Of a stretch of 62,423 nucleotides of DNA, positions 1-8,258 are shown in pieces. Position 1 is the first letter of the stretch, and each line of letters starts with the position of its first letter. Source of the stretch: Candidatus Amesbacteria bacterium RIFCSPLOWO2_01_FULL_48_25 (GTDB lineage Bacteria > Patescibacteriota > Microgenomatia > CAZETR01 > Amesbacteraceae); the NCBI GenBank assembly GCA_001773695.1, contig MEXN01000004.1, forward strand, positions 1-62,423. The letters run 5' to 3'. The notes below the pieces were generated by a model, which was not told the DNA's origin, made no database searches, and saw only the letters and a list, made by a program, of their open reading frames with translations. The position numbers were made by a program, and so were the translations under genes.

Positions 1-2
1 CT

Positions 3-128
3 GACGCGCTTTCCGCGGAGGCGCCCTACGTTCCTCAGGGTAAAGGCGCGGAAAGCGCTACCTCCCGACCTCCTTCCAATTCTTACTGGCTGGCCGTTTA
101 CAAAAAATGTCGAACTTCATTTGATTAG
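3..128 (+). CDS. 3' end of a gene entering from outside the window, possibly a serine recombinase
   Basis: Frame is open from base 3 to TAG at 126-128 and ends ...SYWLAVYKKCRTSFD*, the same last 13 residues as the recombinase-like fragment at 1583-1876. The identity of the upstream gene is inferred. Confidence 0.35.
   Translation, partial: DALSAEAPYVPQGKGAESATSRPPSNSYWLAVYKKCRTSFD
6..58. repeat. GC-rich nested hairpin
   Basis: GCGCTTTCCGCG (6-17) pairs with CGCGGAAAGCGC (47-58); inner CCCT/AGGG stem. Confidence 0.7.
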
Positions 129-162
129 CTCCGGCGCGGCGCCCCCACCCGCCGCGCCTCCG
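85..162 (+). repeat. 78-bp perfect inverted repeat, left copy
   Basis: Exact reverse complement of 1549-1626 by hand comparison; contains a GGCGCGGCG/CGCCGCGCC hairpin. Confidence 0.95.
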
Positions 163-225
163 AAACTGTCGGCTCGAACAGTCCGCCATAGGCGGACTAA
201 AAGAAAAAACGCAAAAATTTTTAAA

Positions 226-1329
226 TCATTCGACTGGGCTAAATGTTTCAAAAAAAGCCTTAATTGCAGCCTCATTATTCAGGCACTCCTCTTTAGGAAA
301 CCTCCAATAATATATGTCTGAATAAGAAAGTATAAAAACTTTATTATTGAAGGGAAGGTAAATTGTCACAATTCTATATTTTCTAGGCACACTGCTTTCA
401 TAAACGGCATTGTTATCTGCGGTAACTCTTTTACCTATAATTCCGTTTATGGACACACTTTCCTGTACCTTACCTTGATAATTGTAAGTTGGATCATTAA
501 CACCTAGCCACTGTTCGAGTGGCAAACCTGAAGGATTATCTCTTTTTTCTACATTAAAAGAATCCAGACAAAACTCATCAAGACCGTGTGCCCTATTGAA
601 TGTTAGTTTTCTATCATTATCGCTTCGGTTAAGTAACGGTGCTTTAAATAATTTGTCATCGTATCGAATAGACCACCCATCTGTTTTATTTTCAAATAAC
701 TTCCAACTTTTTTGCTCAGTCGAAATTTTGGTAACCGGTGTGGGTAAAAATTGGTTAATTGTTTGTCCAATTGAAGACCATAAAATATAGATCGCTATAA
801 ACAGCAAAATGTATCCACCAAAGAAAGCTATTTGTTTTTTCATTGGCCACGTACTTTTTACTCTAACAACCTGACTATTGGCTGCTAAATCATGAAGCCC
901 TCTCTTTTGTTTCGAAAAGATTATTACAAGGCTGTTTACGAAGTAGAATAGGCCCCCGAAAATAGGAATTATTAAAATACCCACTTTTGTAAGCTCTCTT
1001 ACAATTCCGCGCCAGTACGATATTTTTTCATCCGTATGATATTTAACAACTTTAAGACCATAGGCATCTTTACCAATTGTTGTTCCCTTTTTAGAAGTGA
1101 AGTAAACGTAATATATAATATATGAAGCTAGAACAATTATTGTATAAACCGGATTTGTTTCTATACTTCCTTTTGAAATACGTATTCCAGTTATTAGATA
1201 CCAAATAGAAACTATTACTACGGCTGGTATACCAAAAATCATTCCATCTATTATGCTTGCCCAGAATCTTGCCCATGCGCCACCAGGTTTTATCTCAAAG
1301 TTGTTGTTGGGTTTTGACTCCAAGGGCAT
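226..1329 (-). CDS. RDD-family membrane protein with extracytoplasmic C-terminal domain
   Basis: RFWASIIDG, TIGKDAYGLKVV and KRGLHDLAANSQVV are RDD motifs, followed by a further TM helix and a soluble domain. Confidence 0.8.
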   Translation of the reverse strand: MPLESKPNNNFEIKPGGAWARFWASIIDGMIFGIPAVVIVSIWYLITGIRISKGSIETNPVYTIIVLASYIIYYVYFTSKKGTTIGKDAYGLKVVKYHTDEKISYWRGIVRELTKVGILIIPIFGGLFYFVNSLVIIFSKQKRGLHDLAANSQVVRVKSTWPMKKQIAFFGGYILLFIAIYILWSSIGQTINQFLPTPVTKISTEQKSWKLFENKTDGWSIRYDDKLFKAPLLNRSDNDRKLTFNRAHGLDEFCLDSFNVEKRDNPSGLPLEQWLGVNDPTYNYQGKVQESVSINGIIGKRVTADNNAVYESSVPRKYRIVTIYLPFNNKVFILSYSDIYYWRFPKEECLNNEAAIKAFFETFSPVE

Positions 1330-1548
1330 AGGTGGGTGAGCTACATCATGATTTGAAGAGTGGTTTGAGATTGTGCCTGAGATTGGTTGGTGGTAAAATT
1401 AGATTGTAAATTTTCCGCCATATTTAGTTCAGTATAGCATAGGTGTATTATTTTTTGATCTGCTTACATGTTAGATTGTCGTATTCAATTTGGTTCAATT
1501 GTAGTTTGCTCGGCTCCGCCGAGCAAAAATCGCGCGCGCAAAAAATAG

Positions 1549-1626
1549 CGGAGGCGCGGCGGGTGGGGGCGCCGCGCCGGAGCTAATCAAATGAAGTTCG
1601 ACATTTTTTGTAAACGGCCAGCCAGT
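1549..1626 (-). repeat. 78-bp perfect inverted repeat, right copy
   Basis: Exact reverse complement of 85-162. Confidence 0.95.
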
Positions 1627-1876
1627 CGCCTCTTATTATAACTTCCTGCTGCTTACGCAGGACGGAAAACACCGGATTCTCGGCTATTTTCCAGACTTTC
1701 TTATCCTTAACGTAAATCCGTTCAAAGAACAGCCTAAGATAATGTTTTTTGAGAAAATCCGGGGCTTCAGTGTACGTCTGATAAGTATTAGTGGTTAGGG
1801 ACAAAACTTCGTCAATCAAACGATAGTCCAGTTTAGCCTTGGCTTCCACCTCACTTTGTGACTCCTGAAAAACCTC
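1583..1876 (-). pseudogene. C-terminal fragment of a probable large serine recombinase
   Basis: ...LKKHYLRLFFERIYVKDKKV...W..RT* resembles the post-coiled-coil tail of large serine recombinases; no catalytic N-terminus is present. Left boundary from the ORF track, right boundary approximate. Confidence 0.5.
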
Positions 1877-1920
1877 CCTGAATAATATTAAGAAATTGCT
1901 AAAGAAGTAGATTGATGCAT

Positions 1921-2025
1921 TTTGACTTCTTCCCATCTTTCCCTGATTAACTAATTCTGAAAAGTGTCCTCATAAGCTTTGAACAAAAATCTTTTAATAA
2001 TATGCTCTCATTCACTAATTATAAT
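1921..2025. repeat. Diverged direct repeat A (LIRERWEE-encoding segment plus TATAAT)
   Basis: About 44/60 nt identical to 8295-8354 by hand alignment; similarity continues to a shared TATAAT (2020-2025 vs 8376-8381). Confidence 0.8.
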
Positions 2026-2113
2026 GGTGTAACTAACGGTTCAAATCTTTAATGAACTGAAGGTTAAAAGATGTGTTTAGATAAAAATTGCTACTACAGG
2101 ATATAATCAGAGT

Positions 2114-4417
2114 ATGGCAAAGGAAGTTGACACAACACTGGTTCATCCCGCAGTAGCTTCACTTTCACCCAATAACCCTGCCGGGATCGAAAGTCTGCTA
2201 AGGGTCGTGAACGGCGAGGTAGCTTTCGTCGATTTCAATGAAGGGCTGCTCCTAGATTGGATGCTTTCGAGTGCTTCACTCGGGGATTTTGTAAAAAGTC
2301 ACAGTTCAGACAAGACTTTTGCGGCTAGATTGGAAAAATTAGGTATGACACATAAAAGAGTGGAAACTGTTGTTGAAGGGGCTGACGAGGCCAGGGAAGC
2401 TTTCGCAAGATTAGAAACTTATGGAGATTTCAGAAAGTTTGTGGAGTGTAAGAGAGTGCTCGAGGATGCTGCCAAGATCGTGAGTGCGCCATTTATAACA
2501 GATGAAGAAGCGGAGTATTTAAAAGTTCATAGGAATACATTTGGTTACTACAATTCCCAGTTTCATGATTCCAGAGGTTCATTAGTAGAATTGTCACAAT
2601 CTGCCAGGCTATATAAGACTTTTTTAGAAGATCAAGCCATACCTCAAATACTGCAGAGTAAGCCAAAAATACTTGGTATTTCGGTAACTCACCCAGATCA
2701 ATATGTATTTGCATTTCAATTGGCCCATGGAGTCAGAAAAGCTAATCCTGAAATTGTGACATTGTGTGGGGGTGGAACAGTTTCGAGAAGGATGGATACA
2801 TGGTCAAAAGATGATGATATAAACAGGGCTATTTTCAGAGATTCCAGAGCAGAAGCTAAAGGACTAATAGATGGAATGGTTATAAGTGAAGGGGAATTAG
2901 CCATGGCGCAGCTAACAGCGAAAATTGTCAGCGATCCAAGTATCGATATAAATGATTTGTTTGATGATGTTTACGGCGCGGTATATAAGAAAGACGGCAA
3001 GATCACATTTAACAGTCTTCCCAGAGCTTTTTATCCGGAGGCATTATGGAGAAGAAGAGATGTTTATAAACACTTAAAGAGAGGTTTAATGCCCGAAGAA
3101 AGAAAAATGCATTCGCTTGTAGACGGAAGAGTTTGTACTTACGAATGTTCCACCGGTGGGTGTGAATTTTGTGCGATTAGTAAGGGTTACCTGGAGTTAT
3201 CCCAACAGGCAGTCCGAAGACTGAGAATTCCACAGGCTCCAGTATTATCAGACTCGACTCAGATTGAACAAGGTTTAAGTTATCCTCCGGACGCCATTGA
3301 CGGAAAAAGAGGGATTAAGGTTATTGCTCAACGAAAATTGGGTGCCGAAAGAATGGCTCAGGAGATACAAGAAGGACTTCAGAATGGATTTTCAGTAGTA
3401 GATATAACTGATGAACAGTTTACTGTCGATCAGGCTTTAGAGCTTACAAAAGCCCTGGCCAGTCGGGGCATAAATACATCTAATCAGGATGTCGTTTACT
3501 CTTGCTATATGAGAATTGATGACGCTGGGGATACTACAAATTACAGACAAAAATATGGAAAGGACTTGTCAGATCTTTTGGTTGATCCGGAAGCTGCCAA
3601 GCAGCTTGCAGCAGGCGGCTTAAGATTCGCCCAGTTTGGTCTTGAAACCACATATCCTCCAAAAATGCAGTCTATGGTAAAGGGAACATCTGAATCAAAA
3701 GTGAAAAAATTTGGGAGTGTTCTGAAGAATTTAGCTGAAAATGGAATCATGTCACATATTTTCGTAATTGTCGGCTATCCGTTAAGGCAAGATTATTTTC
3801 AGGATGGTAAAAAATTCTCTTTCGAGAAAAAGGTTTTAGGCCGCGACATAGATGCCGATGACCTGGAAATTTTTGAGGCTATTTATAACTTAAAGTTTCT
3901 CCATGACCACAGTCGATATATTTATACATTTAAACAAGCACCATACGAATTAGCGTATGGATCTCCAATGGCAGCAAAACCTGAACAATATGGTTTGGCT
4001 GCTGATTGGGGACAATTTGAGAAGACTGACCTAGCTTGTGGTATTCCGTTCAGTTACACAGAAAAGATCGGACCGTCACAACCAGTATTGAACGACTTGA
4101 TTGAGTTATATGGTTTTTGGAAGCGAAAGGAAATGCCATTTCAACCAGTTGTCCAGGAGTTTCAATACTCGCAGAGAATAATACAGGAGCTGGGAGCAGA
4201 GAAAATTGCCCAAATTGCTCACAACTTATCAAAAAATGAGTCTGGAAACGAAAGCCCCACACGGGAAGCAGAAATTCTTATCCGCTTGTGGGGTAAACTG
4301 ACGGATCATGGAAAAAGCAACAACGGGGTTAGATTAATGTTTCCGTCTGGATTTAAGTCTTACGACGACTTGTATTCATTGGCTGAGAAATTGGAAGAAC
4401 TGAGGGAAAAAACTTAA
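2114..4417 (+). CDS. Cobalamin-binding (class B-like) radical SAM protein
   Basis: B12-binding-like segment KILGISVTHPDQ...GGGTVS; CSTGGCEFC (CX4CX2C) cluster motif; YMR, FGLET and VIVGYP match radical SAM barrel strands. Confidence 0.8.
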   Translation: MAKEVDTTLVHPAVASLSPNNPAGIESLLRVVNGEVAFVDFNEGLLLDWMLSSASLGDFVKSHSSDKTFAARLEKLGMTHKRVETVVEGADEAREAFARLETYGDFRKFVECKRVLEDAAKIVSAPFITDEEAEYLKVHRNTFGYYNSQFHDSRGSLVELSQSARLYKTFLEDQAIPQILQSKPKILGISVTHPDQYVFAFQLAHGVRKANPEIVTLCGGGTVSRRMDTWSKDDDINRAIFRDSRAEAKGLIDGMVISEGELAMAQLTAKIVSDPSIDINDLFDDVYGAVYKKDGKITFNSLPRAFYPEALWRRRDVYKHLKRGLMPEERKMHSLVDGRVCTYECSTGGCEFCAISKGYLELSQQAVRRLRIPQAPVLSDSTQIEQGLSYPPDAIDGKRGIKVIAQRKLGAERMAQEIQEGLQNGFSVVDITDEQFTVDQALELTKALASRGINTSNQDVVYSCYMRIDDAGDTTNYRQKYGKDLSDLLVDPEAAKQLAAGGLRFAQFGLETTYPPKMQSMVKGTSESKVKKFGSVLKNLAENGIMSHIFVIVGYPLRQDYFQDGKKFSFEKKVLGRDIDADDLEIFEAIYNLKFLHDHSRYIYTFKQAPYELAYGSPMAAKPEQYGLAADWGQFEKTDLACGIPFSYTEKIGPSQPVLNDLIELYGFWKRKEMPFQPVVQEFQYSQRIIQELGAEKIAQIAHNLSKNESGNESPTREAEILIRLWGKLTDHGKSNNGVRLMFPSGFKSYDDLYSLAEKLEELREKT

Positions 4418-5310
4418 CTTTGCTCTGCCTTTTCTTCTTTTTCATGATCGTAGTAGGTAGGGTATTTTTCTGACATGGGGAATTTATATTGAGTAGGATC
4501 TTTGACCCCTGCTTCTTTATAACCTCTTCGCCTATCCCAACAAGTCGGACAATCGCCGCATTCGAGATCAAACTTCTTTACGCAAGTTCTGGCTTTATGA
4601 ATAGGGATATCATGATCATAAGCCCACTTAATAAATACATCCTTATCATAATAATTTCCAAAAGCTGTTTCTATGGGAATAGAAATAAATTGCCAAGAGT
4701 AGTCATTTAAAATTTGACACATAAGTAAATTCATAAGTCTTGTCCATGTTTGGGAGCAATGATATGAGCTGTCTGAACTTAGATGCGAAGCAAATATTGT
4801 GTTTATTTTTACATCTTTAGCCATCAGCGAATAGCCATATTCCATCCCCGTGAGGAAAATTATCGGATTTCTGGCTGGATATGAAATGTTATGACGAAGA
4901 AGAATTGAATCCACTTTCTTTTTTGCTTCTCTTAACAAATCTTTATATTCTGTTCCCGGGGTTGGAACATTTATCTCTAAATAATCGTTGTAGAGTTTGG
5001 GATATCTCTTTTTGTAGAATTCGTCGAAGAAATCTGCTGATGCTTTTTCGTATTTATAATTTGATTGACCCCTGCTAATAAAGAATGGGTAAACATGTAA
5101 ACCAAACTCTTCCATAAGTATACCGATATTTGTAACAGAATCCTGACCGCCGGAAAGACAGGCAACTACGCTACTGCCCTTTTCCGGCATTTTTACAATG
5201 TATCCACGTTTTTTTTCAAAATAGATATCCAGTACCGAAAGCAGTTCCATGTCTTCGTTGACTTTAGTTTTGATATCAATTATGCCAATATTATTCAATA
5301 TTTTGGTCAT
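4414..5310 (-). CDS. QueC-like PP-loop ATP pyrophosphatase
   Basis: SGGQDS PP-loop, GQ motif, YPARN, C-terminal Zn motif C-x8-CGDCPTC, RRRGYKEAGVKDPTQY tail. Confidence 0.85.
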   Translation of the reverse strand: MTKILNNIGIIDIKTKVNEDMELLSVLDIYFEKKRGYIVKMPEKGSSVVACLSGGQDSVTNIGILMEEFGLHVYPFFISRGQSNYKYEKASADFFDEFYKKRYPKLYNDYLEINVPTPGTEYKDLLREAKKKVDSILLRHNISYPARNPIIFLTGMEYGYSLMAKDVKINTIFASHLSSDSSYHCSQTWTRLMNLLMCQILNDYSWQFISIPIETAFGNYYDKDVFIKWAYDHDIPIHKARTCVKKFDLECGDCPTCWDRRRGYKEAGVKDPTQYKFPMSEKYPTYYDHEKEEKAEQS

Positions 5311-6034
5311 AGTGTTTATACATCGCGTAAACTTTCTTAGCTTCTTTCATAGTTTCCTGATAAATATGCGCATCGGTGACAAAGCCATCGAGTGGCCCGG
5401 TCCAAACATGGACTTTAAGCTTCTTTTCCAATCTTTTACAGACCTCTTTGGATAGCAAAGATATTGCAGCCATATTGCCCCCAGCTTTCTGGTAGGCGTC
5501 AATGGATCTGGCATTAAAGATGGTATTCAGATGAAATCCTTTGTCTTCATCAATTTTCAGCAACCTGAATTGGATTGTAGTAATACAAGGAAGATAATCA
5601 TCTCTCGGTCGATTTAAGGTTCTTTCATAATCTTCTTTTCTCACAAAACTCATTATTGCCTTCTTAGATTCGGGGATTTCAGCCAATCTTTCCACTACGA
5701 AATCCATCATCTTCCAGTTTTTGATTCTAGCAAAGTAGCTTTGACTTCCAGGACTGAATGACGGAACAATATCAAAATCGTGCATTATTTCCTTGTCAAA
5801 AGTTAAGCTTATTATTTCTTCGATATTTTTTTTATTACCGTATTTTTCCATTAAAGGATCTGGGAATACTTGAGTTAGCGACTTTATACGAATATTCTGC
5901 AAACTCAAACGCTTCCTTCCCTCATCGTTGGTTAATTGTCCATTTTTTAAAACTACACCCACAAGATTCATCCAGGCGCTGCCAATTGTTTCCCCGTATA
6001 GATTGTATCCAAAAGGTTCCAAATTTACCCACAT
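5291..6034 (-). CDS. Thymidylate synthase-fold protein (short, archaeal-like ThyA/hydroxymethylase type)
   Basis: LPC catalytic Cys, IQF, RSID, Asn at the dUMP-specificity position (GGN), AHIY; divergent N-terminus. Confidence 0.8.
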   Translation of the reverse strand: MWVNLEPFGYNLYGETIGSAWMNLVGVVLKNGQLTNDEGRKRLSLQNIRIKSLTQVFPDPLMEKYGNKKNIEEIISLTFDKEIMHDFDIVPSFSPGSQSYFARIKNWKMMDFVVERLAEIPESKKAIMSFVRKEDYERTLNRPRDDYLPCITTIQFRLLKIDEDKGFHLNTIFNARSIDAYQKAGGNMAAISLLSKEVCKRLEKKLKVHVWTGPLDGFVTDAHIYQETMKEAKKVYAMYKHYDQNIE

Positions 6035-6113
6035 AATGGCTAATTCTAGCTCTTTTTTTGGAAAACTGCCAGTTAGTGGTAAAATTTGGCGGAGTTAACG
6101 TATATCCGGTAGT

Positions 6114-6704
6114 ATGTCAGTTGAAAGAACACCTGTTACTGTGTTTTTAGAAGGATCTTCCCGCTCCGGTAAAACTACTCTATTAAAAGCAATAGAAGCT
6201 CCGGATACAGCCATAATCTATAAGAATTGGCCATCTGATTTGAAAGATCCACCCATAGAATTCTTTTTGGAGCGGGACGAAGATAAGCTTCACAGAGCTA
6301 AGGCTGCACCGCAGCAGTTAAAACTAGTGGACAGAGGCTATTTATCAACATTAACATTCTATTCGGTTCTGGAAGAACAAGTGGGAATTTCAGCCCAACC
6401 AGTTTACAGGTGGGTTGTTAATGAAATGGGGCGCAAGTTATACCATCCGGATCATTACATTTTTGTTGATGTGCCCCCCGAAGTGACAAGGAAAAAATAC
6501 AAAAGCCATGGGGGTTTAGTATACGAAAATAATATGTGGATCAAATTTCCCGAACGAATAAGTTTTTGGTACAACAGACTTCTGGCAGCTTATGAACCTG
6601 CAACTTCAGTTTACCGGATAGACGGCAGCAGGGATTTAAATTTAGTAATGGAAGAATTTAACGACCTACTCAGCACAATCAGAAACGGCTCACCTGAAAC
6701 ATAA
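6114..6704 (+). CDS. Thymidylate-kinase-like nucleoside monophosphate kinase
   Basis: P-loop EGSSRSGKTT, DRGYLS motif, PDHYIFVDVPPE. Confidence 0.8.
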   Translation: MSVERTPVTVFLEGSSRSGKTTLLKAIEAPDTAIIYKNWPSDLKDPPIEFFLERDEDKLHRAKAAPQQLKLVDRGYLSTLTFYSVLEEQVGISAQPVYRWVVNEMGRKLYHPDHYIFVDVPPEVTRKKYKSHGGLVYENNMWIKFPERISFWYNRLLAAYEPATSVYRIDGSRDLNLVMEEFNDLLSTIRNGSPET

Positions 6705-6708
6705 AGTT

Positions 6709-7581
6709 TTACCTGAAATATTCCTTAGCTTTACGCAGAACTTCAAGGTGGTCATCAATACTACTCTTATTGCCTCCAACTGATCCGACTGAAAAATGAC
6801 TGACTTCAGAATGTGCAAGCCAATCATCACCTTCTCTTTTCCAGTCATTTTCTCCCGATTCCCATCTGATGTTAACCTTTCCCATAACAGGCAATGTTTG
6901 CGGGTCCCTGGCTTGGTCTTCTAAACATTGTTTCAACAGAGGAAGATACTGATAATTAAATTCGGCGGCCTTTCCTCTTGGAATCCACCCATCGGCTATC
7001 CTCACTGTTCTCGCTATAACTTTATTATTAGTTCCCCCCATCCAAATAGGGATTGGTTGTTGAATAGGTCGAGGGTTAATTCCTACAGATTTAAATTGCT
7101 CTTGCTGATCTGAGAAATTAACAGAATCTTGTGTCCATAGTTGTCGGAGCAGCTCAACTTGTCGCTCAATTCTTCTACCTCTTTGAGAAAAGATACTTCC
7201 CATTCCCAAAGCGTCAAACTCTTCTTTTAACCAGCCGACCCCTACCCCTAGGTTTAGCCTGCCATCACTCAGAATATCTACATCTGCTGCCTGCCGGGCT
7301 GTAAGGGCTGTTTGCCTCTCGGGAAGTACAAGTACACCAGTGAAAAGCTCAATCTTACCTGTAACGGCAGCTATTGCTGCCAGTAAGGTCAGCGGGTCTG
7401 TGTATTTTTCTTCTAAAGAGTATTTCAGCTTCTCACCTGTTTGATTCTGACTTGGTAAAACAACATGATCACAGGCAACTACATAATCAAATCCCATTTT
7501 TTCGGTTTCCTTTGCTAACTCAAGAATTTCTCTTCCGCCAATGAGTTCGCGCGGCAATATCACTCCTATTTTTCTTTCCAT
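6709..7581 (-). CDS. LLM-class (flavin/F420-dependent) oxidoreductase
   Basis: GFDYVVACDH, DPLTLLAAIAAVT, LSDGRLNLGVGVGW, PIPIWMGG, ADGW. Confidence 0.88.
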   Translation of the reverse strand: MERKIGVILPRELIGGREILELAKETEKMGFDYVVACDHVVLPSQNQTGEKLKYSLEEKYTDPLTLLAAIAAVTGKIELFTGVLVLPERQTALTARQAADVDILSDGRLNLGVGVGWLKEEFDALGMGSIFSQRGRRIERQVELLRQLWTQDSVNFSDQQEQFKSVGINPRPIQQPIPIWMGGTNNKVIARTVRIADGWIPRGKAAEFNYQYLPLLKQCLEDQARDPQTLPVMGKVNIRWESGENDWKREGDDWLAHSEVSHFSVGSVGGNKSSIDDHLEVLRKAKEYFR

Positions 7582-7658
7582 AGCCAGATTTTATCACTAT
7601 GTCCTGTAGTTTGCTAAATTTGGCAATACCATCCATAGAATCGTTGTATAATTAAAAC

Positions 7659-8258
7659 ATGACCGAAGAAGAATCCTGGGGGGTTTTGACAAAGAAACAA
7701 TTCGAAGACTTTTTAGCTTTGTTTACCAAACGTTTTGGTAAACCTGTTCACTCAAAACGGCTTTCTTTTTCTTTTTGGGATCATTCCAGAAACGAAGTTG
7801 ACACTAGGATAAGAGTCACTGACGGAAAACCGGAGATTATGCAGAAAGTTGGAGGAATCGGCGACCAAAAGGTCAGAGTAAGAACGGAAAGAAGAATAAC
7901 TTTAACTCCCAATCCGGACGATTTATTTAATACATACAAAATTCTCAGGGTACTAATTCCAGGTGGCGACTCATGCTATATATATCAACACGATAATTAT
8001 ATTTTTAAACAACCAGATTTTGAAATTAAACTGACTCATCAGCTGGGCAAAACCGACAAATATAATTTCGAGGTAGAAGCCGACACCACAAAGAAAGAAT
8101 TAAACCAGCTTTTAAGGGATCTGGGATTGTTTGAACTGGTGACTCTTACCAACGCTGAGTTTTGGGACAAATGGAATGAAGAGCTAAATCTTAGAGATGT
8201 TGAGTTAACTGAAGAGAAAGTGAAAGATCTTATAACAGGATATTTAGCTCACGAGTAG
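7659..8258 (+). CDS. CYTH-like (triphosphate tunnel) protein
   Basis: N-terminal ExE (ExExK degenerate), RIRV...MQK, FEVEA; acidic C-terminal helix. Confidence 0.62.
   Translation: MTEEESWGVLTKKQFEDFLALFTKRFGKPVHSKRLSFSFWDHSRNEVDTRIRVTDGKPEIMQKVGGIGDQKVRVRTERRITLTPNPDDLFNTYKILRVLIPGGDSCYIYQHDNYIFKQPDFEIKLTHQLGKTDKYNFEVEADTTKKELNQLLRDLGLFELVTLTNAEFWDKWNEELNLRDVELTEEKVKDLITGYLAHE

What the first reader, a model, noticed from the sequence alone, without database searches (positions are those of the whole stretch)
4414..6034. Coupled TS-fold and QueC-like pair with no deazapurine pathway
Seen: the two ORFs overlap on the same strand. The TS-like protein keeps PC, RSxD, the dUMP-type Asn and HIY, but has SKK where canonical ThyA has SRR, and an archaeal-like N-terminus. 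The QueC-like protein has SYHC in place of the usual YPDC. No folE, queD, queE or dpdA is present in the window. Inference: QueC may act on a pyrimidine carboxylate (or a protein) downstream of the TS product rather than on CDG, which would be new chemistry for the family.
Basis: partly seen in the sequence, partly recalled or inferred. Interest (0 to 1): 0.7.

Follow-up and report, generated by a model that had tools for sequence, protein, structure and literature searches.

The report
TS-like/QueC-like pyrimidine nucleotide module
Two overlapping genes in an ultra-small groundwater (CPR) bacterium, one resembling thymidylate synthase and one resembling the queuosine enzyme QueC, form the core of a widespread operon I found described nowhere; it appears to remake pyrimidine DNA building blocks rather than make queuosine.

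Summary
At 5291-6034(-) and 4414-5310(-) a TS-fold gene and a QueC-family gene overlap by 20 nt. The quoted motifs are there, and no deazapurine gene lies in the 62-kb window.

The pair is not a local oddity. In about 105 related loci from CPR bacteria and one phage contig, the TS-like gene sits directly upstream of the QueC-like gene in 72 of 86 testable loci, and the two overlap in 69 of 69. Next to them comes an NTP-hydrolase slot, filled by a CYTH domain in 64 loci, Ham1 in 8 (twice fused to the QueC-like protein) or NUDIX. A nucleotide kinase of one of three unrelated families is also usually present. In sister lineages a dCTP-deaminase-family gene replaces the TS-like gene.

The QueC-like protein keeps the ATP and zinc motifs but lacks three of the four residues shown to be essential for CDG-to-preQ0 conversion. 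The TS-like protein keeps the catalytic Cys and the dUMP contacts, but its C5/folate pocket is remodelled.

Best reading: a pool-level pyrimidine deoxynucleotide pathway with T4-like logic, in which the QueC-like enzyme adenylates an oxygen on a uracil-type nucleotide and installs nitrogen. The exact chemistry is unresolved: C4 amination or a C5 carboxylate. I found no earlier description; I rate it a new variant of a known kind.

The parts
5291..6034 (-). TS-fold protein (247 aa). It keeps the catalytic Cys150 and the dUMP-binding residues R176/S177/D179/N187/H223/Y225, and has K124-K125 in place of the Arg pair. Its C5/cofactor pocket is remodelled (D146, Y147, I151, A175, I178, Q182, K183, G186), and it lacks the ThyA insert carrying W80/W83 and the C-terminal lid.
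   Evidence: residue list from PMC13326640
4414..5310 (-). QueC-family PP-loop ATP pyrophosphatase (298 aa). It has SGGQDS, YPARN, K223 and a four-Cys zinc motif (C243/C251/C254/C257). It carries a roughly 45-residue N-terminal extension. The CDG-pocket residues are replaced: Y35 to R80, YPDC to SYHC, Y189 to V244.
5291..5310 (-). 20-nt overlap between the TS-like stop codon and the QueC-like start codon, suggesting translational coupling. The same overlap occurs in 47 of 69 related loci, and some overlap occurs in all 69.
6035..6113 (.). 79-nt divergent intergenic region between the TS-like gene and the kinase gene, with one promoter-like match on each strand. These are consensus matches only.
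6114..6704 (+). P-loop nucleotide kinase (196 aa) of the deoxynucleoside-kinase / dTMP-kinase type, transcribed divergently from the pair. It is conserved at this position in WIN, L006, L051, L056 and L059. Other loci carry a Tmk-family or archaeal-adenylate-kinase-like kinase instead.
6709..7581 (-). Luciferase-like (F420/FMN-type, TIGR03619 family) oxidoreductase. It is a lineage-specific accessory gene of the window-type block and is not part of the general core.
7659..8258 (+). Conserved 199-aa protein, possibly a very divergent CYTH/triphosphate-tunnel homologue. If so, it would fill the NTP-hydrolase slot in this lineage. The assignment is inconclusive.
   Evidence: single sequence: prob 6%; profile-profile: prob 57%, E 1e-4, 169 columns
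2114..4417 (+). 767-aa protein convergent with the QueC-like gene (4-nt tail overlap). It has a weak B12-binding/radical-SAM-like signature and an invariant CX3CX4CX2C motif (C341/345/350/353). It is conserved at this position in at least 8 loci of the window's sub-clade. A link to the pair is possible but unproven.

Best explanation
The two genes are the invariant core of a horizontally mobile operon of CPR (Patescibacteria) bacteria, also carried by at least one phage contig. The operon works on the pyrimidine deoxynucleotide pool, with the logic of the T4 hydroxymethyl-dCTP pathway.

Proposed steps:
1. An NTP hydrolase yields the monophosphate, most likely dUMP. The slot is filled by CYTH in most loci, by Ham1 in some (twice fused to the QueC-like protein), or by NUDIX. 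In the window it may be the divergent 199-aa protein.
2. The TS-fold enzyme binds a uracil deoxynucleotide, adds Cys150 to C6 and performs C5 chemistry with a co-substrate other than the classical folate arrangement.
3. The translationally coupled QueC-like PP-loop enzyme uses ATP to adenylate an oxygen of that nucleotide, and ammonia or an amine displaces AMP. My committed guess is the C4 carbonyl, as in GMP synthase or TilS. That would turn a U/T-type nucleotide into a 5-substituted cytosine-type nucleotide.
4. A dedicated NMP kinase re-phosphorylates the product for use by the polymerase.

Shown: gene order, overlap, family and fold assignments, motif retention and loss, replacement of accessory genes by unrelated families, absence of deazapurine genes in the window and 30 related loci.
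Inferred: every catalytic step, the substrate, the position attacked and the fate of the product.
For: (1) Conserved pairing. The TS-like gene lies directly upstream in 72 of 86 loci, and the two genes overlap in 69 of 69.

(2) The NTP-hydrolase slot is filled by unrelated families.
- CYTH follows in 64 loci and Ham1 in 8, never both, among 90 loci with enough downstream sequence.
- Ham1 is fused to the QueC-like protein in P0078/P0084.
- NUDIX fills the slot in L088 and an HD-domain protein is present in L048.

(3) Kinases of three families occur: Tmk-like, archaeal-adenylate-kinase-like and dNK-like. NDK occurs in L043.

(4) Relatives P0243 and P0245 are paired with a dCTP-deaminase-family gene instead of the TS-like gene. 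They keep the same pocket residues (R80, Q82, E88, Y144, R147, N148, D180, H184, T188, R191, R241), unlike the clades in glycan clusters or fused to an RRE.

(5) The TS-like protein keeps C146, S167, D169, N177, H207 and Y209, so it binds a uracil deoxynucleotide. Of the 12 residues near C5 of dUMP, 7 are clearly changed (W80, A142, L143, H147, Q165, C168, G173); Y94 aligns ambiguously.

(6) The QueC-like protein keeps the ATP and zinc motifs but loses Y35, YPDC and Y189.

(7) No que/fol/tgt genes occur in the window or in the 30 related loci then held.

(8) The PF06508 superfamily already contains GMP synthase, which adenylates and then aminates a ring carbonyl (PMC13329287).

(9) A phage contig carries the TS-like, QueC-like and CYTH genes in its replication module.

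(10) Lineage-specific tailoring genes surround a constant core, as in phage hypermodification clusters: a radical-SAM-like protein and an LLM oxidoreductase here, an aminotransferase in L048, and two AdoMet_dc-type decarboxylases in L088/L090.
Against: - No biochemical data exist for any member.
- Every characterised enzyme of the QueC branch proper (QueC, ToyM, Cap9, QatC, nitrile synthetase ArtA) activates a carboxylate, not a ring carbonyl.
- Amination of uracil to cytosine next to a dCTP deaminase looks like a futile cycle unless the two act at different phosphorylation levels or on differently substituted bases.
- Phages that want 5-substituted dC simply use an Asp177 TS homologue on dCMP, so the route proposed here is roundabout.
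- Tmk-family kinases inside some operons fit a thymine-like product better than a cytosine-like one.
- The N-terminal half of the TS alignment is uncertain, so the loss of E58 and Y94 is not firm.
- Methanogen-type TS may share the short architecture and still make dTMP.
- The window itself has no clear CYTH or Ham1 next to the pair.
Confidence: 0.4

Rival explanations
1. The TS-fold enzyme installs or exposes a carboxyl group at C5 of dUMP, for example by carboxylating the C5 carbanion of the Cys-C6 adduct. The QueC-like enzyme then does to it what QueC does to CDG: carboxylate to amide, perhaps on to nitrile, or ligation to an amine. The product would be 5-carbamoyl- or 5-cyano-dUMP, or a 5-carboxamide.
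For: - All characterised QueC-branch enzymes adenylate a carboxylate.
- Sister CPR clades sit in glycan clusters with amine-forming decarboxylases, or are fused to a peptide-binding RRE. Both contexts fit carboxylate-amine ligation.
- The TS-like pocket near C5 has lost its hydrophobic folate contacts and gained invariant K183, Q182, D146 and Y147, which could hold CO2 or a carboxylate.
- Tight coupling would let ATP hydrolysis pull an unfavourable carboxylation.
- Tmk-type kinases fit a 5-substituted uracil product.
- Amine-forming enzymes occur in some variants.
Against: - No TS-family carboxylase is known.
- No oxidase or carboxylase belongs to the conserved core.
- QueC-like proteins with the same pocket residues are paired with a dCTP-deaminase-family gene and have no TS-like gene on their (short) contigs.
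- The case rests purely on analogy.
Confidence: 0.2
2. Housekeeping pyrimidine balancing around dUMP in a nucleotide-scavenging cell. The TS-like protein is the cell's archaeal-type thymidylate synthase. CYTH or Ham1 acts as the dUTPase. The QueC-like protein is an ammonia-dependent dUMP-to-dCMP aminase. The kinases and NDK re-phosphorylate. All products are canonical.
For: - Every partner is an enzyme that touches dUMP, dUTP or dTMP: the dCTP-deaminase family, Tmk family, NDK and the NTP hydrolases.
- The TS-like protein has the uracil-specific Asn and the deoxyribose contacts.
- Its best curated model is the methanogen-type thymidylate synthase.
- CPR bacteria are reported to lack known nucleotide biosynthesis pathways (PMC12455944).
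Against: - Distribution is patchy: 25 loci among 185,579 species genomes, found with two narrow peptide patterns.
- Identity is high across labelled CPR classes, and the window block sits in a low-GC island.
- One phage contig carries the module.
- The TS C5 pocket is remodelled.
- Variable tailoring genes surround the core, and two QueC-like paralogues occur in a single operon.
- The window has a separate Ham1-family gene at 56095-56733.
Confidence: 0.2
3. Ordinary annotation. A diverged thymidylate synthase happens to lie next to a genuine preQ0 synthase, and the other queuosine or dpd genes lie elsewhere in the genome.
For: Source databases name the homologues '7-cyano-7-deazaguanine synthase' and 'thymidylate synthase'. 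Both Pfam gathering thresholds are passed. Only 62 kb of the genome was visible.
Against: - Both curated equivalog cut-offs are missed by a wide margin: 27.9 against 150.3, and 49.4 against 174.55.
- Three residues essential for QueC are replaced.
- The clade is separate from canonical QueC.
- No que gene was found in the window or the 30 related loci scanned, although canonical QueC has queD next to it in about 33% of genomes.
- The overlap with the TS-like gene is conserved in 69 of 69 loci.
Confidence: 0.05
4. The QueC-like enzyme thiolates the pyrimidine at C2 or C4, as ThiI, MnmA, TtuA or YcfA do. That would give, for example, 2-thio-dTMP. Alternatively it conjugates a nucleobase to a protein, as Cap9 and QatC do.
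For: - PP-loop relatives TtuA, NcsA and YcfA appear among the fold matches.
- Cys198 is invariant in addition to the four-Cys site.
- Cap9 is the best sequence-profile match in the PDB.
Against: - No sulfur-mobilising partner (IscS, rhodanese, TtuB or YcfC-like) occurs in any locus.
- The four-Cys site looks like the structural zinc site of QueC.
- There are no QatABD, CD-NTase or Cap10 partners and no known defence-system hit.
- The clade has no peptide-recognition domain.
Confidence: 0.1

Closest known systems
T-even phage pathway for 5-hydroxymethyl-dCTP (gp56 dCTPase/dUTPase, gp42 dCMP hydroxymethylase, gp1 dNMP kinase), and the related 5-hydroxy-dCMP synthase systems of RB69/DLP3 (PMC13326640)
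   Same: The logic matches: an NTP pyrophosphatase, a TS-fold enzyme acting on a dNMP, and a dedicated NMP kinase. All are clustered, and here they are also carried by a phage contig.
   Different: - The TS homologue has Asn at position 177 (uracil, not cytosine). It keeps Asp169, so it is not the D169N hydroxylase type.
- Its C5 pocket differs from that of both methylases and hydroxymethylases.
- An extra ATP-dependent QueC-like enzyme is invariably coupled to it.
- Most carriers are cellular CPR genomes, not phages.
Canonical QueC (7-cyano-7-deazaguanine synthase; PF06508 cluster 1, TIGR00364)
   Same: Same fold (Foldseek matches to 2pg3 and 3bl5). It shares the SGGxDS PP-loop, a VPxRN-like motif, Lys165 and the C-terminal four-Cys zinc motif.
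   Different: - Y35 is replaced by Arg, YPDC by SYHC, and Y189 by Val.
- It has a roughly 45-aa N-terminal extension and a helical insertion.
- It scores 27.9 against a cut-off of 150.3.
- It has no queD/queE/folE/tgt neighbours. Its partners are pyrimidine-nucleotide enzymes.
GMP synthetase ATP-pyrophosphatase domain and TilS (PP-loop enzymes that adenylate a ring carbonyl of a nucleotide base, then add ammonia or an amine)
   Same: These supply the proposed chemistry. GMP synthase belongs to the PF06508 superfamily network (PMC13329287) and appears among the fold matches.
   Different: There is no sequence-level membership. The GMPS motifs are absent and the QueC-type zinc motif is present. 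The substrate would be a pyrimidine deoxynucleotide, which is unprecedented.
Methanogen-type thymidylate synthase (NCBIfam TIGR03283) and ThyA
   Same: TS fold, a short archaeal-like architecture, the catalytic Cys and all dUMP contacts.
   Different: It scores 49.4 against a cut-off of 174.55. The Arg pair is Lys-Lys. The folate and C5 pocket residues are replaced, and it is always coupled to a QueC-like gene.
Cap9 / QatC (QueC-family enzymes of type IV CBASS and QatABCD defence)
   Same: These are QueC-scaffold enzymes repurposed away from queuosine. Cap9 is the best PDB sequence-profile hit (1.8e-8).
   Different: The defence partners are absent. The QatC model scores 21 against a cut-off of 280. 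The gene context is nucleotide metabolism, not a defence island.

Membership tests
Canonical QueC (preQ0 synthase) | SGGxDS PP-loop and C-terminal Cys4 zinc motif | tested here: met
   LSGGQDS is present. The cysteines are C243-x7-C251-xx-C254-xx-C257, where the canonical spacing is x8. All are invariant in 56 homologues.
Canonical QueC (preQ0 synthase) | Substrate-pocket residues shown essential by mutagenesis: Y35 (YxQxHxxE), R99 (VPxRN), aromatic Y131 (YPDC), Y189 (PMC13329287) | tested here: not met
   Only R99 is kept (YPAR147N). Y35 is replaced by R80, YPDC by SYHC with invariant His184, and Y189 by V244.
Canonical QueC (preQ0 synthase) | Score at or above the curated equivalog cut-off (TIGR00364) | tested here: not met
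   27.9 bits against a cut-off of 150.3. The protein falls in a separate clade in a neighbour-joining tree.
Canonical QueC (preQ0 synthase) | Genomic linkage to queD/queE (and folE, tgt/dpdA) | tested here: not met
   No hit to E. coli QueD, QueE, FolE, Tgt or QueA in six frames of the window and 30 related loci. No such Pfam family appears in window ORFs. The rest of the genome was not visible.
Canonical QueC (preQ0 synthase) | Converts CDG to preQ0 with ATP and ammonia | not testable with these tools
   Needs an enzyme assay or complementation of a queC deletion.
Thymidylate synthase ThyA (folate-dependent dUMP methylase) | TS fold with the catalytic Cys and the dUMP contacts R166/S167/D169/N177/H207/Y209 | tested here: met
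   The AF2 model has pLDDT 90.6, and its top Foldseek hits are MilA and TS. C150, R176, S177, D179, N187, H223 and Y225 are invariant.
Thymidylate synthase ThyA (folate-dependent dUMP methylase) | C5/folate pocket: W80, W83, L143, H147, Q165, L172, G173, F176 and the C-terminal lid | tested here: not met
   Replacements: L143 to Y147, H147 to I151, Q165 to A175, L172 to Q182, G173 to K183, F176 to G186. There is no Trp at the W80 or W83 positions. A 17-residue segment and about 30 C-terminal residues are absent. The N-terminal half of the alignment is less certain.
Thymidylate synthase ThyA (folate-dependent dUMP methylase) | Score at or above the curated cut-offs (NCBIfam ThyA models; methanogen-type TIGR03283) | tested here: not met
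   49.4 against 174.55 for TIGR03283, and 30.7 against 327 for NF002495. No PDB TS reaches E<0.1 even with a family profile.
Flavin-dependent 5-hydroxy-dCMP synthase (TS homologue of RB69, DLP3, HY126) | D169N and N177D signature (PMC13326640) | tested here: not met
   Asp179 and Asn187 are both invariant, although 9iqu and 9iqc are among the best fold matches.
T4-type pre-replicative pyrimidine modification pathway | TS homologue plus a dedicated (d)NMP kinase in one cluster | tested here: met
   The window has a kinase at 6114-6704. Related loci carry Tmk-like, archaeal-AK-like or dNK-like kinases.
T4-type pre-replicative pyrimidine modification pathway | NTP pyrophosphatase/triphosphatase that supplies the dNMP or removes the canonical dNTP | tested here: inconclusive
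   Met for the family as a whole: CYTH or Ham1 follows in 72 of 90 loci, and NUDIX in L088. In the window, only the 199-aa protein at 7659-8258 is a candidate, and it resembles CYTH weakly (hhalign prob 57%).
T4-type pre-replicative pyrimidine modification pathway | A non-canonical base present in the DNA of the carrier | not testable with these tools
   Needs nucleoside LC-MS, or raw-signal analysis of long reads. Only assembled contigs of DNA runs were available.
QatC / Cap9 defence QueC-family enzymes | Model score and partner genes (QatA/B/D, or CD-NTase plus the Cap10 TGT-like protein) | tested here: not met
   QatC scores 21 against a cut-off of 280. PADLOC gives only a weak QueC-domain hit, and no partner appears in any locus.

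The most novel reading that the evidence does not exclude
CPR bacteria carrying this operon, and at least one of their phages, make a so far unknown pyrimidine deoxynucleotide at the pool level. Candidates are a 5-carbamoyl- or 5-cyano-uracil (the pyrimidine counterpart of ADG/preQ0) or a 5-substituted or N4-substituted cytosine, made by TS-fold plus PP-loop chemistry. The nucleotide would then be incorporated into their DNA. These would be the first cellular organisms known to replace or supplement a canonical base pre-replicatively. The work would also reveal a new reaction type for both the TS family and the QueC family.
Probability: 0.25. Interest if true: 0.92.

Novelty: new variant of a known kind. 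Interest (0 to 1): 0.72.

Why it matters
Both enzyme families are textbook cases, and both have recently turned out to be more versatile than thought. TS homologues can hydroxylate, and QueC homologues can conjugate bases to proteins. Here the two scaffolds are welded into one translationally coupled unit. The unit is conserved in more than a hundred loci of the least-understood bacterial radiation, and neither protein keeps its canonical substrate or cofactor pocket.

Whichever chemistry proves right, it would be a new enzymatic reaction on pyrimidine nucleotides:
- a PP-loop U-to-C amination,
- a 5-carboxamide or nitrile, or
- a thiolation.

It may also reveal a new DNA base in cellular organisms. 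That would matter for restriction evasion, for host-symbiont nucleotide economy in CPR bacteria, for interpreting CPR metagenome sequencing, and for enzymatic synthesis of modified nucleotides.

The question is directly testable by co-expression in E. coli and nucleoside mass spectrometry, as has been done for phage TS homologues. On the practical side, current database names for these proteins ('7-cyano-7-deazaguanine synthase', 'thymidylate synthase') are probably misleading.

Tried and rejected
1. Canonical QueC or queuosine role: rejected on motifs, scores, tree position and context.
2. Known anti-phage system: PADLOC gives no system hit.
3. Flavin-dependent 5-hydroxylase type of TS homologue: the signature residues D169N and N177D are absent.
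4. Prophage origin of the window locus: the window is an ordinary CPR chromosome with enolase, PPDK, UvrABC, GatAB and DnaE. Only 1 of 2.9 million viral contigs carries the pair. No cultured phage has a close homologue.
5. The 199-aa neighbour as a clear CYTH protein: a single-sequence comparison failed, and a profile-profile comparison is only suggestive.
6. PDB sequence searches for the TS-like protein, the 767-aa protein and the 199-aa protein gave nothing useful.
7. A search for RNA-seq runs to test co-transcription found only DNA metagenomes.
8. Literature searches for a prior description found none. The 2026 QueC-family survey has no TS-linked cluster and no PF00303 entry in its neighbourhood table.
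9. I could not test whether carrier genomes lack thyA/thyX, pyrG or dut, because only loci of 20 kb or less are retrievable.

Full report
**1. The observation**

One is a 247-aa protein at 5291-6034(-). The other is a 298-aa protein at 4414-5310(-). Reading the minus strand shows '...cact ATG acc aaa ata ttg aat aat...' for the second protein, overlapping '...tat gac caa aat att gaa TAA' of the first. That is a 20-nt overlap.

Pfam assigns Thymidylat_synt (33 bits) and QueC (43 bits), both just above threshold. NCBIfam shows how far each protein is from the curated enzymes. The QueC-like protein scores 27.9 against a cut-off of 150.3 for TIGR00364. The TS-like protein scores 49.4 against 174.55 for the methanogen-type TS, and 30.7 against 327 for a bacterial ThyA model. 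Only the methanogen-type model aligns through the N-terminal half, which bears out the 'archaeal-like N-terminus' remark.

AlphaFold2 models are confident, with pLDDT 90.6 and 93.6. For the TS-like model, Foldseek returns MilA CMP hydroxymethylase, thymidylate synthases and the flavin-dependent dCMP hydroxylases 9iqu and 9iqc. For the other model it returns QueC (2pg3, 3bl5) and Cap9 (9nto).

- PC150 = Cys146 of E. coli ThyA
- R176-S-x-D179 = R166/S167/D169
- N187 = N177
- H223-I-Y225 = H207/Y209
- S-K124-K125 = S-R126-R127
- SYHC in the QueC-like protein aligns with YPDC of E. coli QueC

A six-frame phmmer scan with E. coli QueD, QueE, FolE, Tgt and QueA found nothing in the window. Pfam scans of its ORFs show an ordinary CPR-type chromosome, with enolase, PPDK, UvrABC, LexA, RuvC, GatA/B, DnaE, ClpB and L19, and no PTPS, QueE, GTP-cyclohydrolase or TGT family. 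Searches list 25 of 29-30 families each; one search is complete for the small and mid-size ORFs.

**2. The pair is a conserved unit**

Homologues of both proteins number in the hundreds at 50-90% identity. Nearly all source names point to Patescibacteria/CPR: Paceibacteria, Nealsonbacteria and the Parcubacteria group. I collected loci from four sources:
- 25 loci from one-genome-per-species contigs
- 71 loci from metagenome contigs
- one viral contig
- several loci from exact-protein look-ups

Loci were not dereplicated, so the counts include some near-identical contigs.

The results:
- Of 86 loci with at least 800 bp upstream of the QueC-like gene, 72 have the TS-like gene directly upstream on the same strand. 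Four have a dCTP-deaminase-family gene there instead.
- Where both gene ends can be placed, the TS-like stop and the QueC-like ATG overlap in 69 of 69 loci, by 20 nt in 47 of them.
- Only 25 of 185,579 species genomes matched. The search used two narrow peptide patterns, so this is a lower bound.
- Their labels span many CPR classes, plus one Nanoarchaeota MAG.
- In the window the block sits in 8 kb of 38-41% GC, against 45-50% for the rest.

Together these points suggest horizontal mobility.

**3. What travels with the pair**

*An NTP-hydrolase slot.* Downstream of the QueC-like gene lies a roughly 190-aa CYTH/triphosphate-tunnel protein in 64 of 90 loci. Its ExExK and the other tunnel residues are intact, and its best PDB relatives are the archaeal TTMs Saci_0718 and PH1819. 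A Ham1/ITPase-family protein takes that position in 8 loci, and the two never occur together. In P0078 and P0084 the Ham1 domain is fused to the C-terminus of the QueC-like protein. In L088 the slot holds a NUDIX protein, and in L048 an HD-domain protein is present. At least three unrelated NTP-hydrolase families therefore occupy this slot (CYTH, Ham1, NUDIX), with an HD-domain protein in a fourth variant. This is the strongest functional signal in the data.

*A nucleotide kinase.* It comes from one of three families:
- a Tmk-family kinase, lying between the TS-like and QueC-like genes in some loci (85-92 bits)
- an archaeal-adenylate-kinase-like NMP kinase (PDB 6ln3 and 1nks at about 1e-10)
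- the dNK/Tmk-like kinase at 6114-6704, in the window's lineage

*The phage contig.* L031 carries a terminase, exonuclease, YopX, HNH and endolysin. It has TS-like, QueC-like and CYTH genes in its replication module.

*The window-type block.* The window belongs to a sub-lineage (WIN, L006, L051, L056, L059; partially L052, L053, L097) with this conserved arrangement: 199-aa protein, LLM oxidoreductase, kinase, then divergently TS-like and QueC-like, then a convergent 767-aa protein.
- The 199-aa protein resembles the CYTH profile only weakly: prob 6% as a single sequence and 57% profile against profile.
- The 767-aa protein has a weak B12/radical-SAM-like signature and an invariant CX3CX4CX2C motif.

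**4. Where the QueC-like protein sits in its family**

A profile search of 1.8 billion representative proteins found 212 relatives below 1e-30. These share its N-terminal extension but occur in different settings:
- fused to a PqqD-type peptide-recognition (RRE) domain
- in glycan clusters with glycosyltransferases, a PLP decarboxylase and a methyltransferase
- next to an AEP-like protein and a YcaO
- again next to a TS-like gene (P0244: L041, L042)
- preceded by a dCTP-deaminase-family gene. P0245 lies on a contig that reads through only with UGA = Gly (code 25), in the order CYTH, NDK, DCD, QueC-like, Ham1. P0243 lies in the order AK-like kinase, DCD, QueC-like, Ham1.

In a neighbour-joining tree the TS-linked proteins form one clade, far from canonical QueC.

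The 2026 survey of PF06508 (PMC13329287) defines the canonical signature and shows by mutagenesis that Y35, R99, Y131 and Y189 are essential. In the window protein:
- the PP-loop, VPxRN-like motif (YPARN), Lys165 equivalent (K223) and zinc cysteines are kept
- Y35 is Arg80
- YPDC is SYHC, with an invariant His184
- Y189 is Val244

The TS-paired and DCD-paired proteins share the same residues at these positions: R80, Q82, E88, Y144, R147, N148, D180, H184, T188, R191 and R241. The glycan and RRE clades do not. The two nucleotide-linked groups therefore probably bind the same or a similar substrate.

The survey treats only the ten largest clusters. It mentions no TS-linked group, and PF00303 is absent from its neighbourhood table.

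**5. What the TS-like protein keeps and loses**

PMC13326640 lists the 12 residues within 6 Å of C5 of dUMP in E. coli ThyA, along with diagnostic positions. By hhalign and MAFFT the family compares as follows.

Kept:
- C146, S167, D169 and N177
- the deoxyribose contacts H207 and Y209

These fit a uracil deoxynucleotide bound for Cys-C6 chemistry.

Changed, with the new residues invariant in the family:
- A142 to D146
- L143 to Y147
- H147 to I151
- Q165 to A175
- C168 to I178
- L172 to Q182
- G173 to K183
- F176 to G186

Absent:
- Trp at the W80 and W83 positions
- a 17-residue segment
- about 30 C-terminal residues that close over the folate

The protein is not the D169N hydroxylase type. 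The alignment of the N-terminal half is less secure, so I do not rely on the apparent loss of E58 or Y94. Methanogen-type TS may share the short architecture, and I could not obtain such a sequence to compare.

**6. Mechanism**

What is shown is gene architecture, folds and motifs. What follows is inference.

The recurring set is an NTP hydrolase, a TS-fold or dCTP-deaminase-fold enzyme, a PP-loop ATPase, an NMP kinase and sometimes NDK. This is the logic of pool-level base replacement known from T-even phages: hydrolyse a dNTP to the dNMP, modify the base, then re-phosphorylate with a dedicated kinase. I therefore read the pair as the two base-modifying steps of such a pathway acting on uracil-type deoxynucleotides.

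For the QueC-like step, two chemistries have precedent among PP-loop enzymes:
- adenylation of a ring carbonyl followed by attack of ammonia or an amine (GMP synthase, which belongs to the PF06508 network; TilS)
- adenylation of a carboxylate (QueC, Cap9, QatC)

I commit, at low confidence, to the first: O4 of a U/T-type nucleotide, giving a 5-substituted cytosine-type product. My reasons are these. The conserved core contains no enzyme that would make a carboxylate. The same pocket also occurs in proteins paired with a dCTP-deaminase-family enzyme, whose business is C4.

The TS-like C5 pocket has lost its folate contacts and gained an invariant Lys, Gln, Asp and Tyr. Tmk-type kinases suit a 5-substituted uracil. 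Some variants carry amine-forming enzymes, namely two AdoMet_dc-type decarboxylases in L088/L090 and an aminotransferase in L048.

A housekeeping version, with canonical dTMP and dCMP made around a dUMP hub, is also possible. Against it stand the patchy, mobile distribution, phage carriage, variable tailoring genes around a constant core, and two QueC-like paralogues in a single operon (L049, L050).

**7. Comparison with what is known, and novelty**

Functionally the nearest system is the T4 hydroxymethyl-dCTP pathway and its recently described 5-hydroxy-dCMP relatives. By family, the proteins are outlying members of PF00303 and PF06508. They fail the defining pocket tests of ThyA and of QueC respectively.

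I found no description of a TS-QueC-like operon in three full-text searches or in the family survey. No cultured phage has a close homologue, and no defence-system model matches.

I rate it a new variant of a known kind: a pool-level pyrimidine modification pathway with an unprecedented enzyme pairing. There is roughly a one-in-four chance that it makes a truly new DNA base in cellular organisms.

**8. Limits**

- No assay was possible.
- Only 62 kb of the source genome and 20 kb or less around each homologue were visible. Genome-wide absence of que, thyA/thyX, pyrG or dut genes is therefore untested.
- Predicted coordinates could not be inspected residue by residue, and no complex model could be made.
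- Locus counts are not dereplicated.

Noticed in passing
window 2114-4417 (+): A 767-aa protein lies convergent with the QueC-like gene, with a 4-nt tail overlap. It has no Pfam hit and only a weak match to the B12-binding part of RiPP radical-SAM methyltransferases. Its CX3CX4CX2C motif is invariant. It is conserved at this position at 63-77% identity in at least 8 related loci. It may be a tailoring enzyme of the same pathway.
   Followed up: partly
window 1-8000: GC content is 38-41% here, against 45-50% over the rest of the window. The low-GC stretch coincides with the conserved six-gene block and looks like a horizontally acquired island.
   Followed up: partly
L043 1-5304 and L044: This contig translates cleanly only with UGA = Gly (code 25, Gracilibacteria/Absconditabacteria type). 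It carries CYTH, NDK, a dCTP-deaminase-family gene, a QueC-like gene and Ham1 in one string. A dCTP-deaminase-fold protein stands where the TS-like protein stands elsewhere.
   Followed up: partly
L049 230-3716; L050: Two QueC-like paralogues, each about 50% identical to the window protein, lie in one operon in the order TS-like, QueC-like, CYTH, QueC-like, Ham1.
   Followed up: no
L088 1640-2778; L090 862-2085: In this variant the slot after the QueC-like gene holds a NUDIX hydrolase followed by two tandem pyruvoyl-type AdoMet_dc-family decarboxylases. These could supply an amine.
   Followed up: no
L048 407-5038: An elaborate variant carries, in order, an HD-domain protein, a distant QueC-like protein, a more canonical-looking TS homologue, a class I/II aminotransferase, a dCTP-deaminase-family protein and a window-type QueC-like protein.
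   Followed up: no
P0272, P0279, P0291, P0294, P0300 (proteins): A sister family of roughly 410-aa QueC-like proteins is fused to a C-terminal PqqD-type peptide-recognition (RRE) domain, which implies a RiPP-modifying QueC-like enzyme. P0308 is instead fused to an S24/S26 peptidase-like domain.
   Followed up: partly
L036, L037, L038 (around 7001-7970): Another CPR QueC-like family is embedded in glycan-synthesis clusters, next to a PLP-dependent decarboxylase, a Methyltransf_24 protein and glycosyltransferases. It may amidate a sugar acid.
   Followed up: no
L031 15249-16820: The phage contig that carries the TS-like, QueC-like and CYTH genes also encodes a full-length GroEL-like chaperonin (PHROG 5725, 3.5e-96).
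   Followed up: no
L029 3403-4149: A third, shorter QueC-family gene (249 aa; Pfam QueC 66.6 bits; the only type besides L003/L004 detected by E. coli QueC in phmmer) follows the TS-like, QueC-like, Ham1 and kinase genes in this Shapirobacteria-labelled contig.
   Followed up: no
window 56095-56733 (-): A separate Ham1/RdgB-family gene lies 50 kb from the pair. It is probably the cell's housekeeping non-canonical NTP pyrophosphatase.
   Followed up: no
window 10000-36000: GC skew is strongly positive (0.11-0.31) and almost all genes lie on the minus strand, so the window appears to lie within one replichore.
   Followed up: no
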